Shown: positions 459 through 5,002 of the stretch, in pieces
How positions within the stretch are numbered: the first letter of the stretch is position 1
Layout: every line of letters starts with the position of its first letter
Source: a virus
Taxonomy: Duplodnaviria > Heunggongvirae > Uroviricota > Caudoviricetes
Reading direction: 5' to 3' (one strand)
Length of the DNA: 5,002 bases
Virus record (IMG/VR): IMGVR_UViG_2675903396_000008
The notes under the pieces: model-generated
Told to the model about the DNA's origin: nothing
Database searches by the model: none
Seen by the model: the letters and a program-made list of their open reading frames with translations, nothing else
Made by a program: the position numbers and the translations under genes

Positions 459-1043
459 ATGACCACTTTTACAAAAGAGCAGTTAATCAGTCATGTTAGT
501 GAAAATGTAAAGGCGATGAAATTTGCAGTAAAACAGACAGCATTCAAAAATTCTCTCGAGGCAATTGAGTTGGATTTAGCACTGGCCCTTGTTGCTCAGG
601 CTTCGCTGGAAGCAGAGCCCGTGCTTTATATGAATCGATTTACCGGAAAGACATTCTCACTGGAAGAGCAACCCGGTGCTGATAAGGAACCGGAAATATA
701 CGTGCCGCTATATGCTGCCCCGCCAGACAGCGCCGCCATGCTTCAGGCTGGAAACTTTCGGGAAAAGAAGGGTTCGTCAACCAATAATTTTCGGGAAATC
801 TCGGAAACGTCAACCAACTATCCGGTAACTCTGGATGGTTGGATAAGCTGTAGTGAGCGAATGCCGGATGACGGTCAGCACGTAATTATTTTATGTGATG
901 GCGCATTCGTTCTTTATGCGCAATATCGAGACGGTGAGTTTTTTGATGTAGTCCGTGATGGTGATGAATTTTTCGAAACACAGAGCCGCAATGTAACCGA
1001 CTGGATGCCGCTACCAGAACCGCCGCAGGAGGTGCGCCAATGA
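459..1043 (+). CDS. Phage protein, 194 aa, C-terminal region resembling the DUF551 family (WISCSERMPDDGQHVIILCDG...)
   Basis: ATG at 459 with AAGGAG at 447-452 (6-nt spacer); stop TGA at 1041-1043. An alternative in-frame GTG at 399 has AGGAGG at 386-391 and overlaps the upstream stop (GTGA). The ORF-track start at 330 overlaps the upstream gene and is rejected. DUF551 assignment is from memory. Confidence 0.6.
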   Translation: MTTFTKEQLISHVSENVKAMKFAVKQTAFKNSLEAIELDLALALVAQASLEAEPVLYMNRFTGKTFSLEEQPGADKEPEIYVPLYAAPPDSAAMLQAGNFREKKGSSTNNFREISETSTNYPVTLDGWISCSERMPDDGQHVIILCDGAFVLYAQYRDGEFFDVVRDGDEFFETQSRNVTDWMPLPEPPQEVRQ

Positions 1044-1123
1044 ACTGGCCTGAAGCATTTGCAATTACAGGCGTTGCTATGGCTATCGCTTTTTTAGTAT
1101 ATGTTATTTGTCGGTGGGGGTAA
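1040..1123 (+). CDS. Micro-ORF, 27 aa hydrophobic peptide (MNWPEAFAITGVAMAIAFLVYVICRWG), predicted single transmembrane helix
   Basis: ATG overlaps the upstream stop (ATGA at 1040-1043); AGGAGG at 1026-1031; stop TAA at 1121-1123. Too short for statistical gene calling; supported by the SD and coupling geometry. Confidence 0.4.
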   Translation: MNWPEAFAITGVAMAIAFLVYVICRWG

Positions 1124-1158: not shown

Positions 1159-1263
1159 ATGTCGGATGATATTTTACTGGCAATGGAAGGTGCGCTGGCT
1201 GTTATTGCTGTTGTGGGCGTTTACTGCCTGGTTGTGTTTTTGATGGATCGACTAGGGAACTGA
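1159..1263 (+). CDS. Micro-ORF, 34 aa hydrophobic peptide (MSDDILLAMEGALAVIAVVGVYCLVVFLMDRLGN), predicted single transmembrane helix
   Basis: ATG at 1159 preceded by AAAGGAGGG at 1147-1155; stop TGA at 1261-1263. Confidence 0.45.
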   Translation: MSDDILLAMEGALAVIAVVGVYCLVVFLMDRLGN

Positions 1264-1305: not shown

Positions 1306-1333
1306 TTGCGGTAAAGCGAGAGTTAAGTAGAAT
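1306..1333 (+). promoter_or_regulatory. Candidate promoter for the mok/hok mRNA (-35 TTGCGG at 1306-1311, 16-nt spacer, -10 TAGAAT at 1328-1333)
   Basis: Hexamer match only. A start near 1340 together with the terminator at 1733-1754 would give a transcript of roughly 400 nt, in line with known hok mRNAs. Confidence 0.25.
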
Positions 1334-1394
1334 TGCTGCGGGTGCTTGAGGCTATCTGCCTCGGGCATGAACACCAACGGCAGATAGAGAAAAG

Positions 1395-1460
1395 CCCCAG
1401 TTAACATTACGCGTCCGGCAAGACGCTTAACATTAATCTGAGGCCATATCTATGCTCTAC
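1395..1460 (-). ncRNA. sok: Candidate Sok-like antisense RNA covering the mok translation initiation region; boundaries approximate
   Basis: Inference from hok/sok architecture. A minus-strand promoter-like pair (-35 TTGCCT at plus 1495-1490, 17-nt spacer, -10 TAACCT at plus 1472-1467) would start transcription near 1460, antisense to the mok SD and start codon. I could not identify a terminator. Confidence 0.25.
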
Positions 1461-1664
1461 ACACGTAGGTTAGCCTCTTACGTGCCGAAAGGCAAGGAGA
1501 AGCAGGCTATGAAGCAGCAAAAGGCGATGTTAATTGCCCTGATCGTCATCTGTTTAACCGTCATAGTGACGGCACTGGTAACGAGGAAAGACCTCTGCGA
1601 GGTACGAATCCGAACCGGCCAGACGGAGGTCGCTGTCTTCACAGCTTACGAACCTGAGGAGTAA
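1452..1664 (+). CDS. mok: Mok-like leader reading frame, 70 codons, in frame with hok and ending at the same stop (N-terminal extension MLYTRRLASYVPKGKEKQA)
   Basis: ATG at 1452 is in frame with hok. The extension resembles my recollection of MokC (ML.T.R...K.KEK.AMKQ.K). In hok loci, mok translation is coupled to and required for hok translation. Confidence 0.5.
   Translation: MLYTRRLASYVPKGKEKQAMKQQKAMLIALIVICLTVIVTALVTRKDLCEVRIRTGQTEVAVFTAYEPEE
1509..1664 (+). CDS. hokD: Hok/Gef-family type I toxin, 51 aa (MKQQKAMLIALIVICLTVIVTALVTRKDLCEVRIRTGQTEVAVFTAYEPEE)
   Basis: ATG at 1509 with AAGGAGAAG just upstream; stop TAA at 1662-1664. The sequence matches my memory of E. coli HokD (RelF): single transmembrane helix, conserved C..R and TAYEP motifs. 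Family assignment is high confidence; the exact paralog is from memory. Confidence 0.85.
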   Translation: MKQQKAMLIALIVICLTVIVTALVTRKDLCEVRIRTGQTEVAVFTAYEPEE

Positions 1665-1732
1665 GAGACCAGGCGGGGGAGAAATCCCTCGCCACCTCTC
1701 ATGTGTCAGGCATCCTTAACGCACCCGCACTA

Positions 1733-1754
1733 AACCCGCTTCGGCGGGTTTTTT
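1733..1754 (+). terminator. Rho-independent terminator ending the hok transcript (stem AACCCGC / GCGGGTT, loop TTCG, T6 tail)
   Basis: Hairpin and T-run read directly from the sequence, about 70 nt after the hok stop. Confidence 0.65.
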
Positions 1755-1900
1755 GTTGCGCGCTGAATGCGCAGGGTGAAAAATAACCATATATTTGATT
1801 ATATACACAACAAAAAATAAAAGTCATTGTACCTGCACATTAAATAATCAAATATACGGCGTGAAATAAATATTTTTCAGATTAATATTTTTGTCTCTAT

Positions 1901-2152
1901 GTGGATATAACCGTTTGTACTTATAAACTCGGAGGCATCGTGGAAAAAATAAAGAAACTATTTAGTTGCAAATACGCAGTCATACGTCGTGATGACCTGT
2001 CAGTTATAGTCGAAATGGATTACTTCCCTGAAACCCCAAAATCAATGATGTATCGTAATGGTCGAAAGGCAATTTTTTTACCGATGAGGGTAAGTGACAT
2101 TATGGGAAATGATAAACTGCTGGATGAATTGCGAGTCAGAGCATCCTGTTAG
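1901..2152 (+). CDS. Small hypothetical protein, 83 aa, possibly Rem-like; alternative GTG start at 1940 gives 70 aa
   Basis: ATG at 1901 has no obvious SD; GTG at 1940 has GGAGG at 1931-1935 with a short 4-nt spacer. Stop at 2150-2152. In E. coli K-12 Qin, an 83-aa rem gene lies beside hokD, but I cannot recall its sequence, so the link rests on context and length only. Confidence 0.4.
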   Translation: MDITVCTYKLGGIVEKIKKLFSCKYAVIRRDDLSVIVEMDYFPETPKSMMYRNGRKAIFLPMRVSDIMGNDKLLDELRVRASC

Positions 2153-2223: not shown

Positions 2224-2823
2224 ATGGCGCATATACAACTGGTCAAACAAACCTCTTCCGGATTACTTCTCCCGGCGACGCCGGAGAGTTGCGATTTTTT
2301 GCATCAAATCAAAATAGGTGAGTGGATACACGCAGACTTTAAGCGTGTGCGTAACTACGCATTCCACAAGCGTTTTTTCAAACTTCTGCAACTCGGATTC
2401 GATTACTGGACTCCGGTCGGTGGGGCGATCACTCCTCGCGAACGAAAACTGGTGTCCGGTTTCGTTGATTATCTGTGTGAATCAGTAGGCCGGGAACATA
2501 CGCCAGCTCTGAGCGAAGCCGCAGAGCAATATCTGAATACAGTTGCGACACGCAGAACCCGAGATACAGCATTGCTAAAGTCGTTTGAGGCTTTCCGCGA
2601 GTGGGTAACCATTCAGGCCGGATTTTACACCGAGCATATTTATCCGGACGGTAGCCGTGGGCGCAGGGCGAAATCCATCTCGTTTGCGAATATGGACGAA
2701 ACCGAGTTTCAGCAGGTTTATAAATCTGTGCTGAATGTACTGTGGAACTGGATCCTGTTCCGTAAATTTTCCTCTCCGGAACAAGTCGAAAATGTGGCCG
2801 CGCAGCTACTGGAGTTTGCGTAA
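2224..2823 (+). CDS. DUF1367-family phage protein, 199 aa
   Basis: ATG at 2224 with GGAG at 2211-2214; stop TAA at 2821-2823 overlaps the next start (TAATG). Family from memory; it conventionally precedes DUF1364 and Q in lambdoid prophages. Confidence 0.65.
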   Translation: MAHIQLVKQTSSGLLLPATPESCDFLHQIKIGEWIHADFKRVRNYAFHKRFFKLLQLGFDYWTPVGGAITPRERKLVSGFVDYLCESVGREHTPALSEAAEQYLNTVATRRTRDTALLKSFEAFREWVTIQAGFYTEHIYPDGSRGRRAKSISFANMDETEFQQVYKSVLNVLWNWILFRKFSSPEQVENVAAQLLEFA

Positions 2824-3113
2824 TGGTGGATTTACGTAAAGCGGCGCGGGGGCAGATGTGCACCGTCAGAATTCCTGGCTACTGCAATCACGATCCGGAA
2901 ACGTCTGTGCTGGCGCATTACCGACTGGCGGGAACGTGCGGAACAGCGATAAAGCCACACGATATGCAGGCAGCGATTGCCTGTAACTCATGCCACGATT
3001 TAATCGACGGGAGAGTAAAAACCAGCGATTACACCAAAGAAGAATTGCGCCTGATGCATGCAGAAGGTGTTTTTCGCACACAAGAGATCTGGAGAAAGGA
3101 CGGTTATTTATGA
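2823..3113 (+). CDS. DUF1364 / YbcO-like Cys/His-rich phage protein, 96 aa, putative nuclease
   Basis: ATG at 2823 overlaps the upstream stop; stop TGA at 3111-3113. Conserved-looking motifs RKAARG, C..RIPG.CN, ETSVLAH, IAC..CHD; length and motifs fit my recollection of DLP12 YbcO. Confidence 0.7.
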   Translation: MVDLRKAARGQMCTVRIPGYCNHDPETSVLAHYRLAGTCGTAIKPHDMQAAIACNSCHDLIDGRVKTSDYTKEELRLMHAEGVFRTQEIWRKDGYL

Positions 3114-3664
3114 TTTACCCAACGAACACAGGAAAAAGCGGAGAGCACCTTCGTCTCACCACGCTGGAAAGTGTCTGGATTCAGGGGAAACTACGTATGT
3201 GGGGGCGCTGGTCGTATATTGGCGGCGGTAAGACGGGAAATATGTTCAACCAGTTGCTGACCTCTAAAAAGCTGACAAAAACGGCAATTAACGAGGCGCT
3301 CCGGAGGATGAAAAAAGCAGGTCTGGACAAACCTAAACTTGAGGCTTTTTTGCGGGATATGATCAACGGCAAGCAAAAAAGCTGGCTGGTGCATTGTACC
3401 GATTCAGAGGCGTTAATAATCGACAGGGTTATTGGTGAAGTACTGGCAGGTTATCCCGGGCTGCTCAATGTTCTGAGTCAGCGTTATGTGGGGCGGGGGA
3501 TGACTAAGCGCAAAATGGCTGAACTGCTGAATGATGCACATCCGGAATGGAGTTTAAGAACCTGTGAAAGACGCATTGAGCATTGGCTAAAGGTGGCAGA
3601 ATTTATTTTGTACAAACCAATGGTTATGGCTTTTGGTATAGAGAAAAAAGTTATTGCTTTTTGA
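3110..3664 (+). CDS. Late-gene antitermination protein Q-like, 184 aa
   Basis: ATG at 3110 overlaps the upstream stop (ATGA); stop at 3662-3664. It sits directly upstream of a terminator and a tRNA cluster, the canonical Q position. The WG.W motif region resembles QuuD-type Q proteins as I remember them. The ORF-track start at 2990 overlaps the upstream gene and is rejected. Confidence 0.6.
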   Translation: MIYPTNTGKSGEHLRLTTLESVWIQGKLRMWGRWSYIGGGKTGNMFNQLLTSKKLTKTAINEALRRMKKAGLDKPKLEAFLRDMINGKQKSWLVHCTDSEALIIDRVIGEVLAGYPGLLNVLSQRYVGRGMTKRKMAELLNDAHPEWSLRTCERRIEHWLKVAEFILYKPMVMAFGIEKKVIAF

Positions 3665-3803: not shown

Positions 3804-3879
3804 GGCCCTTTAGCTCAGTGGTGAGAGCGAGCGACTCATAATCGCCAGGTCGCTGGTTCAAATCCAGCAAGGGCCACCA
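3804..3879 (+). tRNA. ileZ: tRNA-Ile2 (anticodon CAU, lysidine type), 76 nt with encoded CCA
   Basis: Cloverleaf folded by hand: 7-bp acceptor stem GGCCCTT/AAGGGCC, anticodon loop CTCATAA, T-loop TTCAAAT. Near-identical to my recollection of E. coli ileX, which makes it Ile2 rather than Met. Confidence 0.85.
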
Positions 3880-3888
3880 TATCACATA

Positions 3889-3965
3889 CCGCCATTAGCT
3901 CATCGGGACAGAGCGCCAGCCTTCGAAGCTGGCTGCGCGGGGTTCGAGCCCCCGATGGCGGTCCA
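3889..3965 (+). tRNA. argN: tRNA-Arg (anticodon UCG), 77 nt with encoded CCA
   Basis: Cloverleaf folded by hand: acceptor stem CCGCCAT/ATGGCGG, anticodon stem CCAGC/GCTGG, loop CTTCGAA, T-arm CGGGG-TTCGAGC-CCCCG. The symbol is assigned by its order in the Stx-phage ileZ-argN-argO array and is uncertain. Confidence 0.8.
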
Positions 3966-3978
3966 TTATCGGTATTCT

Positions 3979-4055
3979 GCGTTGTTAGCTCAGCCGGACA
4001 GAGCAATTGCCTTCTAAGCAATCGGTCAGTGGTTCGACTCCACTACAACGCGCCA
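3979..4055 (+). tRNA. argO: tRNA-Arg (anticodon UCU), 77 nt with encoded CCA
   Basis: Cloverleaf folded by hand: acceptor stem GCGTTGT/ACAACGC, anticodon stem ATTGC/GCAAT, loop CTTCTAA, T-loop TTCGACT. Symbol by array order, uncertain. Confidence 0.85.
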
Positions 4056-4224: not shown

Positions 4225-4531
4225 ATGTTTGGAATCTTCAAAAAGAAAACCCGCAGAGCGGCAGCGGAAATTAAAAAGTTTGAGAAACGCGATCTGGCAC
4301 AGGCGGTGATTAACGCTGCATACCTGGTGGCCTATGCAGATGGTGAATGCGAGGCATCCGAGAAAGCGAAGATCGAACAGGTCTTACGTAATCAGCCTGC
4401 GTTGTCTGCGTTTACCTCGGAAATTAATGCGATTAGCGCAACTATTATCGGTCAGCTGGATACCAATTTTAAAATTGGTCGTCGTGCCGCGTTACGCGAG
4501 ATTGAGGATGTGAAACACGATACGCGTGAAG
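4225..4531 (+). CDS. TerB-like domain protein, N-terminal 102 aa; the 3' end runs into the N-run
   Basis: ATG at 4225 with AAAGGAA at 4211-4217 (7-nt spacer). The motif AAYLVAYADGECEASEKAKIEQVL looks like the TerB tellurite-resistance fold as I remember it. The ORF-track start at 4153 has no SD. Confidence 0.55.
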
Positions 4532-4588
4532 NNNNNNNNNNNNNNNNNNNNNNNNNNNNNNNNNNNNNNNNNNNNNNNNNNNNNNNNN
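4532..4588. other. Run of 57 N: assembly gap or masked sequence
   Basis: Read directly. Coding frames on the two sides differ, so the N-run length is probably a placeholder. Confidence 0.95.
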
Positions 4589-4789: not shown

Positions 4790-4956
4790 TTTTTTTGTTT
4801 GCTGTTTATTAAAAACACTTCTGCATGGTGAATCCCCCTGTGCGGAGGGGCGATCAGCAACCAGGTATATGGGATAATCGCGGATTCAGGTGCTGATACT
4901 GAATTCACCGGGAGGCACCCGGCACCATGCAAGAAAAAGAATGTGCATGCAAACAT

Positions 4957-4980
4957 GCCCCTCTCCGGAGGGGCTTTTTT
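4957..4980 (+). terminator. Strong hairpin with T6 tail (GCCCCTC-TCCG-GAGGGGC-TTTTTT); terminator or attenuator
   Basis: Perfect 7-bp GC-rich stem read directly. The 3' arm GGAGGGG sits 7 nt before the ATG at 4981 and could serve as its SD, suggesting structure-gated translation. Confidence 0.5.
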
Positions 4981-5002
4981 ATGGGTAAAAAATGCCCGAA
5001 TG
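4981..5002 (+). CDS. 5' end of the next gene (MGKKCPN...), truncated by the window; alternative in-frame start at 4927
   Basis: ATG at 4981 follows GGAGGGG at 4968-4974. ATG at 4927 is in frame with GGAGG at 4911-4915, but that reading passes through the hairpin. Too short to identify. Confidence 0.2.

What the first reader, a model, noticed from the sequence alone, without database searches (positions are those of the whole stretch)
1306..1754. Apparently complete Mok/Hok(/Sok) type I toxin module inside the prophage early-late junction
The Hok peptide matches HokD as I remember it. In E. coli K-12, hokD is a remnant co-transcribed with relBE and lacks its own mok/sok elements. Here there is no relBE upstream. 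Instead there is a 70-codon in-frame Mok-like leader ORF, a candidate promoter, an intrinsic terminator and a plausible antisense promoter inside the mok 5' region. It could therefore be an autonomous Hok/Sok module carried as phage cargo, relevant to prophage maintenance or superinfection exclusion.
Basis: partly seen in the sequence, partly recalled or inferred. Interest (0 to 1): 0.55.

Follow-up and report, generated by a model that had tools for sequence, protein, structure and literature searches.

The report
Intact prophage hok/mok/sok toxin-antitoxin locus
The region is a complete, ordinary copy of the well-known hok/sok toxin–antisense-RNA module carried by a lambda-like prophage; near-identical copies occur in most sequenced E. 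coli genomes, and a 94%-identical copy has already been characterised experimentally.

Summary
Window 1306-1757 holds a complete hok/mok/sok type I toxin-antitoxin locus.

- **Toxin and leader ORF:** Hok is 1509-1664 (51 aa, Pfam HOK_GEF E=1e-23, identical to K-12 HokD). The in-frame mok is 1452-1664.
- **RNA elements:** The hok leader matches Rfam RF01794 at 111.7 bits (threshold 59). A 5'-3' tac/fbi pairing (1340-1351 with 1714-1726) appears in the minimum-energy fold and is kept, with compensatory changes, in 22 homologues.
- **Antisense gene:** The sok promoter hexamers are identical to those of sokW in phage Sp5, whose -10 element was mutated experimentally. The predicted Sok RNA is 1460→1390 on the minus strand.
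- **Terminator:** 1732-1751.

It is not the K-12 relBEF remnant, whose homology begins only at about 1494.

It is not new. The locus is 93.9% identical to mokW/hokW/sokW of phages 933W and Sp5, which was annotated long ago and shown in 2021 to be a working toxin-antitoxin pair that aids phage release. The same mok-hok-DUF1367-DUF1364-Q gene order is deposited for a Rac-type phage. Copies covering at least 80% of the locus occur in 3952 of 5426 complete E. coli genomes.

The one mildly interesting by-product is that the Sok 5' tail/target segment is hypervariable and falls into discrete classes.

The parts
1306..1333 (+). Putative hok/mok promoter: -35 TTGCGG (1306-1311), 16-nt spacer, -10 TAGAAT (1328-1333)
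   Evidence: Read from the sequence. Both hexamers are identical in 933W hokW. Homology to distant hok loci starts at ~1326-1338. The consensus scan did not report it because the -35 matches only 3 of 6 positions. Promoter activity was not tested.
1340..1757 (+). Predicted full-length hok mRNA (~418 nt), from G1340 to the T-run after the terminator
   Evidence: The 5' end is inferred from the start of the Rfam model at 1340 and its distance from the -10 element. The 3' end is the terminator. The minimum-energy fold is -171 kcal/mol with the 5' and 3' ends paired.
1340..1351 (+). tac element (GGGUGCUUGAGG), the 5' end of the hok mRNA
   Evidence: Pairs with 1714-1726 in the full-length fold. 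Pairs with 1392-1398 (ucb) or 1358-1368 (metastable hairpin) in truncated or nascent folds.
1392..1400 (+). ucb / anti-SD box
   Evidence: In the full-length fold, 1394-1400 pairs with the mok SD region 1438-1444. In one truncated fold, 1392-1398 pairs with tac.
1390..1460 (-). Predicted Sok antisense RNA (~71 nt): 5' single-stranded tail of ~15 nt, a long hairpin, then a U-rich 3' end
   Evidence: Coordinates transferred from the 933W sokW annotation (ungapped offset). Fold. The transcript itself was not observed here.
1467..1495 (-). sok promoter: -35 TTGCCT (1495→1490), 17-nt spacer, -10 TAACCT (1472→1467)
   Evidence: The sequence is identical to 933W/Sp5. The Sp5 'pro-less' primers YO-421/422 change exactly this -10 to GAGCCG and abolish the antitoxin effect (PMC8621323; the primer mapping is my inference).
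1440..1443 (+). mok Shine-Dalgarno sequence GAGG
   Evidence: Lies 8 nt upstream of ATG 1452. Invariant in the homologues aligned. Sequestered by ucb in the full-length fold.
1452..1664 (+). mok ORF (70 codons, in frame with hok)
   Evidence: 64 of 70 residues identical to MokW.
1473..1477 (+). dcb (GCCUC), alternative partner of the mok SD
   Evidence: The Rfam consensus structure pairs GAGGC 1440-1444 with GCCUC 1473-1477.
1509..1664 (+). hok ORF (51 aa), preceded by SD AAGGAG at 1494-1499
1647..1650 (+). TACG motif at the Tyr47 codon, a candidate TadA A-to-I editing site (Tyr→Cys)
   Evidence: Read from the sequence. Editing of hokD at this position is reported in K-12 (PMC5630033). Some homologues hard-code TGC here.
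1672..1693 (+). 3'UTR stem-loop, the expected 3' end of the processed (truncated) hok mRNA
   Evidence: A 9-bp stem is present in all folds. The role is assigned by analogy with R1 (PMC9841398).
1714..1726 (+). fbi element (CCUUAACGCACCC)
   Evidence: Pairs with tac in the minimum-energy fold. The duplex is -18.9 kcal/mol, reached by 0 of 200 shuffles, and is kept with compensatory changes in 22 homologues.
1732..1757 (+). Intrinsic terminator (stem-loop 1732-1751, then a T-run)
   Evidence: Shared with K-12 hokD but not with 933W hokW.

Best explanation
Window 1306-1757 is a complete hok/mok/sok type I toxin-antitoxin locus of the hokD/hokW lineage. It sits in the nin-like region of a Rac/Qin-type lambdoid prophage, upstream of the Q antiterminator.

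Shown here, in silico:
- A stable ~418-nt hok mRNA (from G1340) would fold with its 5' tac element paired to the 3' fbi element, and with the mok SD sequestered by ucb. In that state it is neither translatable nor open to Sok.
- The convergent sok promoter inside the 5' end of mok would produce a ~71-nt antisense RNA (1460→1390), with a free 5' tail complementary to the mok start region.

Inferred from the plasmid R1 paradigm:
- Slow 3' trimming removes fbi and the leader refolds into the tac/ucb and SD/dcb pairings.
- Either Sok then binds and RNase III destroys the duplex, or, if the labile Sok has decayed, mok is translated. hok is translated by coupling, and Hok depolarises the inner membrane.

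Inferred from the 94%-identical Sp5 hokW-sokW:
- In a lysogen both RNAs are made.
- On RecA-dependent induction Sok disappears and Hok is produced before holin and endolysin. This advances lysis and raises phage release.
For: - Rfam RF01794 matches 1340-1514 at 111.7 bits against a threshold of 59.
- Pfam HOK_GEF E=1e-23 for both Hok and Mok. Hok is identical to K-12 HokD.
- tac/fbi pair in the full-length minimum-energy fold, and the mok SD pairs with ucb.
- The tac/fbi duplex is retained in 22 of 22 homologues. Compensatory changes include GGGCGC/GCGCCC and GAGA/UCUC in Photorhabdus, and GAAG/CUUC in Citrobacter.
- Homology to distant loci spans ~1326-1726, that is from the -10 element to the end of fbi.
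- The sok promoter hexamers and spacer are identical to Sp5 sokW, whose -10 mutation abolishes antitoxin activity.
- Sok folds as a tail, a hairpin and a U-tail.
- The locus is 93.9% identical to the annotated mokW/hokW/sokW.
- The same gene order (mok, hok, DUF1367, DUF1364, DUF1133-Q) is found in a Rac-type phage record and in a Rac prophage at ttcA.
- The mechanism summary for R1 comes from PMC9841398. Sp5 function comes from PMC8621323.
Against: - No transcript, toxicity or antitoxin data exist for this exact locus.
- The hok and sok promoters are weak matches to consensus, and the scan missed both.
- Truncated-mRNA folds alternate between conformations depending on the chosen 3' end, so the refolding step is not cleanly reproduced in silico.
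- Chromosomal hokA/B/C loci with intact elements reportedly failed to mediate post-segregational killing (cited in bioRxiv 10.1101/2025.08.07.668861).
- In Sp5 the locus lies near attR, not in the nin region, so its induction behaviour may not transfer.
- NCBIfam Hok models score below their curated cutoffs (48.5 against 73).
Confidence: 0.9

Rival explanations
1. The locus is structurally intact but functionally silent, a 'domesticated' chromosomal hok copy. It makes RNAs but never releases enough Hok to matter, as was reported for chromosomal hokA/B/C.
For: - Chromosomal hok loci with all elements failed to mediate post-segregational killing or rifampicin-induced killing (summarised).
- Both promoters match consensus weakly.
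- Some genes of the best-matching prophage are frameshifted or interrupted by insertion sequences.
Against: - All regulatory elements are conserved. They show compensatory changes across genera, which implies selection on the RNA mechanism.
- The same allele is the commonest among 120 phage contigs.
- The 94%-identical Sp5 locus is active in its native prophage.
- The HokD peptide is toxic when expressed.
Confidence: 0.15
2. Its main role is defence or exclusion: it aborts infection by other phages that shut off host transcription, as R1 hok/sok does against T4. Alternatively it acts in prophage addiction, killing cells that lose the prophage. Under this view it does not assist the prophage's own lysis.
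For: - R1 hok/sok reduces T4 plating efficiency and plaque size (cited).
- hok genes are about four-fold enriched in prophages.
- The labile-antitoxin logic fits both roles.
Against: - The only direct test of a prophage copy (Sp5) found no growth effect in the uninduced lysogen and a positive effect on release of the phage's own progeny.
- hok loci are not enriched near defence systems.
- Nothing in the sequence discriminates between these roles.
Confidence: 0.25
3. It is simply the K-12-type relBEF-hokD remnant with relBE removed. That would mean a bare hok ORF with no regulatory elements of its own.
For: The Hok protein is identical to K-12 HokD, and the 3'UTR and terminator are 97.7% identical.
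Against: - K-12-type homology starts only at ~1494.
- The window has 154 nt of conserved leader (1340-1493) that K-12 lacks. This leader matches the Rfam model and the 933W mokW/sokW.
Confidence: 0.01

Closest known systems
mokW/hokW/sokW of Stx2 phages 933W and Sp5 (VT2-Sakai)
   Same: - 93.9% nucleotide identity over window 1306-1731.
- Same hok promoter hexamers, leader, in-frame 70-codon mok, sok promoter and Sok hairpin.
- Hok is identical at 47 of 51 residues and Mok at 64 of 70.
- The Sp5 locus has been shown to be a type I toxin-antitoxin pair (PMC8621323).
   Different: - Six of the first 16-17 nucleotides of Sok and its target differ.
- The Hok C-terminus is TAYEPEE here and VDYESEK in HokW.
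- The 3' end diverges after 1731: 933W lacks this terminator.
- In 933W the locus lies near attR beyond the tail genes, whereas here it lies between the replication/nin genes and Q.
E. coli K-12 hokD (relF) in the Qin prophage relBEF operon
   Same: - Identical 51-aa Hok.
- 97.7% identity across the hok SD, ORF, 3'UTR with fbi, and terminator.
- Same general position upstream of a Q antiterminator gene in a lambdoid prophage.
   Different: - K-12 has relB-relE immediately upstream.
- K-12 lacks the hok promoter, tac, ucb, the mok start, and the sok gene and promoter. Homology starts at ~1494.
- K-12 hokD is transcribed as part of relBEF (PMC3598666).
Rac-type phage record MN652886.1 (E. coli 442/2) and the Rac prophage of strain 2013C-4974
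   Same: - Same gene order: mok-hok, a small ORF, DUF1367 (irsA), DUF1364 (ybcO), DUF1133 Q.
- Strain 2013C-4974 is 99.8% identical over 1306-1754, and the locus sits in a prophage integrated at ttcA with intR/xisR/recET/kil.
   Different: - MN652886 is 94.5% identical. It has a 1-nt insertion (GGTCAAGG) that puts mok out of frame with hok, and it carries a different Sok tail class.
- RefSeq annotates only hokD, not mok or sok.
hok/sok (parB) of plasmid R1, the family prototype
   Same: Same architecture: tac/fbi, ucb/dcb, mok-coupled translation, and a convergent sok promoter inside mok (Rfam model; mechanism from PMC9841398).
   Different: - HokW, which is 47/51 identical to this Hok, shares only 44% identity with R1 Hok. 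R1 itself was not aligned here.
- The carrier is a plasmid, with a demonstrated post-segregational killing role.

Membership tests
[quoted passage not shown] | ~50-aa Hok/Gef peptide with an N-terminal hydrophobic helix | tested here: met
   PF01848 HOK_GEF E=1.2e-23, 82.9 bits against a cutoff of 22, profile positions 1-42 of 42. Identical to K-12 HokD. NCBIfam Hok models hit but fall below their cutoffs.
[quoted passage not shown] | An overlapping mok reading frame with its own SD, starting upstream of hok | tested here: met
   ORF 1452-1664. GAGG at 1440-1443 lies 8 nt upstream. 64 of 70 residues identical to the annotated MokW.
[quoted passage not shown] | Conserved hok mRNA leader structure (tac stem, complement of the Sok hairpin, SD/dcb hairpin) | tested here: met
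   Rfam RF01794 full-length match at 1340-1514, 111.7 bits against a gathering score of 59. The model is in the sense orientation of the hok leader.
[quoted passage not shown] | Long-range 5' tac / 3' fbi pairing that locks the full-length mRNA | tested here: met
   1340-1351 pairs with 1714-1726 in the minimum-energy fold. The duplex is -18.9 kcal/mol, reached by 0 of 200 shuffles. It is retained in 22 of 22 homologues with compensatory substitutions.
[quoted passage not shown] | A cis-encoded antisense Sok RNA, made from a promoter inside the 5' end of mok and complementary to the mok translation-initiation region | tested here: inconclusive
   The sequence criteria are met. The -35, spacer and -10 are identical to Sp5 sokW, which was tested experimentally. 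The predicted 71-nt RNA folds as a tail plus a terminator-like hairpin. The transcript itself cannot be observed with these tools.
[quoted passage not shown] | Refolding triggered by 3' processing, which exposes the mok SD and the Sok target | tested here: inconclusive
   Truncated folds show tac/ucb pairing for a 3' end at 1700, but the metastable 5' hairpin for ends at 1695, 1705 and 1710. Settling this needs RNA probing or northern blots.
[quoted passage not shown] | Hok toxicity neutralised by Sok | not testable with these tools
   Shown for hokW-sokW (PMC8621323). HokD peptide toxicity is reported. Neither has been shown for this locus.
K-12 relBEF-hokD remnant | relB-relE directly upstream, and a hok ORF lacking tac, mok and sok | tested here: not met
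   The upstream genes are DUF977 and DUF551 family genes plus small ORFs. K-12 homology starts only at ~1494.

The most novel reading that the evidence does not exclude
The Sok 5' tail and its target (window ~1444-1466) may form a set of discrete, rapidly diversifying 'specificity alleles'. There are at least 8 major classes among otherwise ≥87-95% identical phage-borne loci. These classes could keep the hok/sok pairs of co-resident lambdoid prophages from cross-protecting one another, so that each prophage's Hok responds only to the loss of its own Sok. This rests on sequence statistics only, and I did not find the point made in the few papers I searched.
Probability: 0.4. Interest if true: 0.35.

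Novelty: already known. Interest (0 to 1): 0.12.

Why it matters
The finding adds little beyond annotation. It shows that this prophage carries the intact ancestral form of the locus that K-12 retains only as the relF/hokD stump. RefSeq labels such loci 'hokD' and does not annotate mok or sok. Anyone studying induction or lysis timing of Rac/Qin-type prophages should expect a HokW-like helper of lysis here. The hypervariable Sok tail is a small testable lead on how several hok/sok copies could coexist in one genome without cross-talk.

Tried and rejected
- **Promoter scan.** It found neither the hok nor the sok promoter, because both fall below its 4-of-6 hexamer rule. Its only plus-strand hit (1427-1456, 9 of 12) lies inside the leader and is at chance level, so I gave it no role.
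- **Rfam minus-strand 'sok' hit.** The hit at 1267-1398 scores 17.7 bits and is noise. The real match is on the plus strand because the Rfam model represents the hok leader sense strand.
- **Sub-threshold isrK hit.** The hit at 1673-1754 (31 bits against 50) is driven by the 3' stem-loop plus the terminator, with little sequence identity. I treated it as a structural coincidence.
- **NCBIfam.** Only below-cutoff Hok and HokA hits were returned.
- **ORF 1901-2152.** I first took it for Rem because it has the same length and position as K-12 rem. The proteins are unrelated.
- **Minus-strand ORFs.** ORFs 1252-1407 and 1478-1642 lie antisense to the conserved RNA and hok elements and have no support.
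- **Truncated-mRNA folding.** It did not give one stable 'open' conformation, so that step rests on the R1 literature.

Full report
**What is in the sequence.** The window is a stretch of a lambdoid prophage.
- Genes for DUF977 (10-402) and DUF551 (459-1043) family proteins and two small hydrophobic ORFs come first, followed by the finding.
- After the finding come an 83-codon ORF (1901-2152), then DUF1367 (2224-2823), YbcO/DUF1364 (2823-3113) and a DUF1133/Q-type antiterminator (3110-3664).
- Three tRNA genes, a TerB-like ORF interrupted by a run of N, and an STnc100 sRNA complete the window.
- Inside the finding's coordinates, the ORF listing gives a 70-codon ORF at 1452-1664. A 51-codon ORF starting at ATG 1509 lies within it, in the same frame.

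**Check of the observation.**
- Both products hit Pfam HOK_GEF over the whole 42-position profile (E=1.2e-23 and 2.9e-23, about 82 bits against a cutoff of 22).
- The 51-aa peptide is residue-for-residue identical to HokD of a K-12-type strain.
- Rfam's RF01794 ('sok antitoxin, CssrC') matches 1340-1514 on the plus strand across the full model, at 111.7 bits against a gathering score of 59 (E=1e-25). The model is written in the sense of the hok mRNA leader. It therefore tests the tac stem, the complement of the Sok hairpin and the mok-SD/dcb hairpin rather than the antisense transcript itself.
- The terminator scan finds an 8-bp stem at 1732-1751 followed by a T-run.

**It is not the K-12 remnant.**
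- A megablast of 1306-1754 against 5426 complete E. coli genomes finds matches in 4725 of them. Of these, 3952 have a copy covering at least 80% of the query.
- K-12-type strains match only query positions 190-448, which is window ~1495-1753.
- In a K-12-type record that segment is preceded by relB-relE.
- The four-way alignment shows homology beginning at the hok Shine-Dalgarno sequence.
- So K-12 keeps the hok SD, ORF, 3'UTR, fbi and terminator. It has lost the promoter, tac, ucb, the mok start and sok. The window keeps all of them.
- relBEF co-transcription in K-12 is documented in PMC3598666.

**Anatomy and predicted RNA behaviour.**
- *hok promoter.* Upstream of G1340 lie TAGAAT (1328-1333) and TTGCGG (1306-1311). 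Both are identical in 933W.
- *Full-length mRNA.* Folding 1340-1757 gives a minimum-energy structure of -171 kcal/mol. In it, 1340-1351 (GGGUGCUUGAGG, tac) pairs with 1714-1726 (CCUUAACGCACCC, fbi), and the mok SD region 1438-1444 pairs with 1394-1400 (ucb).
- *Nascent and truncated mRNA.* These fold tac either onto 1358-1368, the metastable hairpin described for R1, or onto 1392-1398 (tac/ucb), depending on the chosen 3' end. The alternative pairings are all encoded, but the processing-driven switch is not cleanly reproduced in silico.
- *sok promoter.* On the minus strand it reads TTGCCT (1495→1490), 17 nt, then TAACCT (1472→1467).
- *Sok RNA.* Transferring the 933W sokW annotation through the ungapped alignment gives 1460→1390, 71 nt. 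It folds as a ~15-nt free 5' tail, a long hairpin and a CUUUU tail.

**Comparative support.**
- A scan of one genome per species returned 61 related loci in Escherichia, Shigella, Kluyvera, Citrobacter, Pantoea, Erwinia and Photorhabdus.
- BLAST shows that homology to many divergent copies runs from ~1326-1338 to 1726, that is from the -10 element to the last base of fbi.
- In 22 full-length homologues the first 12 nt always form a duplex with the 3'UTR tail (-15.7 to -25.0 kcal/mol; at most 1 of 200 shuffles as good in 21 of the 22).
- The differences are compensatory. Photorhabdus has GGGCGC...GAGA paired with UCUC...GCGCCC. Citrobacter has GAAG paired with CUUC.
- This reproduces the family's published covariation logic (summarised in PMC9841398) and places the window's locus squarely within it.

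**What is already known about it.**
- The locus is 93.9% identical over 426 nt to mokW/hokW/sokW of phage 933W and VT2-Sakai (Sp5), where all three genes are annotated.
- Takada et al. (PMC8621323) showed the following for Sp5:
  - HokW is toxic, and sokW expressed from its own promoter neutralises it.
  - RNase III and Hfq contribute to that neutralisation.
  - Both RNAs are present in the uninduced lysogen.
  - sokW RNA vanishes and HokW appears in the inner membrane after RecA-dependent induction, about an hour before endolysin.
  - Deleting the locus delays growth arrest and halves phage release.
- Their promoter-less construct, read from primers YO-421/422, changes the same TAACCT that is present unchanged in the window (the mapping is my inference).
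- The gene order mok-hok-small ORF-DUF1367-DUF1364-DUF1133(Q) is deposited and annotated for a Rac-type phage (MN652886).
- The best genomic match, at 99.8%, lies in a Rac prophage integrated at ttcA with intR, xisR, recET and kil.
- The finding is therefore correct but already known.

**Mechanism and function.**
- I rate the identification as an intact hok/mok/sok locus working by the R1-type RNA switch at about 0.9.
- The biological role is less certain. By homology to Sp5, the best-supported role is acceleration of lysis on induction.
- Phage exclusion (as for R1 hok/sok against T4) and prophage addiction are not excluded. Nothing in the sequence discriminates between them.
- One untested inference is specific to this location. 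The locus is co-oriented with early rightward transcription toward Q. Antiterminated read-through on induction would therefore collide with the convergent sok promoter and would also produce hok transcripts with an extended 5' end instead of a terminal tac. Either effect could tip the balance toward Hok.

**By-products.**
- *Hypervariable Sok tail.* The segment encoding the Sok 5' tail and its target is the most variable part of the locus.
  - It has 17 of 21 variable columns, against 96 of 366 elsewhere, among 16 distinct loci that are at least 87% identical.
  - It shows 21 variants in about 8 major classes among 120 phage contigs selected for identical flanks. The window's class is the commonest, at 24 of 120.
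  - Mean per-site diversity is 0.336, against 0.02-0.16 in the other segments.
  - Classes differ at 2-9 of 17 positions. Predicted tail-target duplexes are -26 to -29 kcal/mol for cognate pairs and -5 to -23 for non-cognate pairs.
  - Co-resident copies in one genome carry different classes.
  - The sequences are related, so these counts are descriptive and not probabilities. They do fit diversification of antisense specificity.
- *Mok sequence is unconstrained.* The Mok N-terminus changes freely across classes. A 1-nt indel (GG[T]CAAGG) toggles mok between in-frame and out-of-frame in close relatives. This fits mok mattering only through its translation.
- *Possible RNA editing.* Tyr47 is encoded as TAC within TACG (1647-1650), the TadA editing motif reported for K-12 hokD (PMC5630033). 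A few homologues hard-code Cys at this position.

Noticed in passing
window 1444-1471 (both strands): The Sok 5' tail/target segment is hypervariable and falls into about 8 discrete classes among otherwise near-identical phage-borne loci. Mean diversity is 0.336 against 0.02-0.16 elsewhere, with 21 variants in 120 phage contigs. Co-resident copies in one genome differ. This may reflect orthogonal antisense specificities.
   Followed up: partly
window 1647-1650: The Tyr47 codon of hok is TAC within TACG, the TadA A-to-I editing motif reported for K-12 hokD (Tyr→Cys). Homologues L048, L050 and L059 encode TGC at the same position.
   Followed up: partly
window 1492/1493; loci L017-L020, L066: A single-base indel (GGCAAGG versus GGTCAAGG) in close relatives puts mok either in frame with hok (window, hokW) or out of frame (Rac-442 record). 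It also changes the sok -35 from TTGCCT to TTGACC.
   Followed up: partly
window 4794-4986 (+): A full-length match to Rfam STnc100 (RF02076) at 145.8 bits against 47. It lies downstream of the Q gene, the tRNAs and the TerB-like ORF.
   Followed up: no
window 3804-4055 (+): Three tRNA genes lie downstream of Q, with anticodons CAT, TCG and TCT. ARAGORN calls the first one Met, while RefSeq annotates the same gene as tRNA-Ile in matching prophages.
   Followed up: no
window 4532-4588: A 57-base run of N interrupts a TerB-like ORF (starting at 4225) on the plus strand. The best-matching genome (2013C-4974) has a different gene (DUF6645) after the tRNAs, whereas an O157:H7 prophage has TerB there. 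The window is therefore mosaic relative to its best hok match.
   Followed up: no
window 1673-1754 (+): A sub-threshold Rfam hit to isrK, a Salmonella Gifsy-1 sRNA (31.2 bits against 50, E=7e-5). It covers the hok 3'UTR stem-loop and terminator and looks structural rather than homologous.
   Followed up: no
window 1040-1123 and 1159-1263 (+): Two very small hydrophobic ORFs lie just upstream of the hok promoter: about 27 aa (my own reading of the sequence) and 34 aa. The second is annotated as a hypothetical protein in RefSeq. Function unknown.
   Followed up: no
window 1901-2152 (+): An 83-codon ORF occupies the position of K-12 rem and has the same length, but it is unrelated in sequence. 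It has no Pfam hit.
   Followed up: partly
L008, L012, L040, L046, L053: Near-identical hokD-type loci appear on short contigs attributed to Veillonella, Xanthomonas, Acinetobacter, Haemophilus and 'Scatousia' genomes or MAGs. This most likely reflects E. coli/phage contamination or mis-binning.
   Followed up: no
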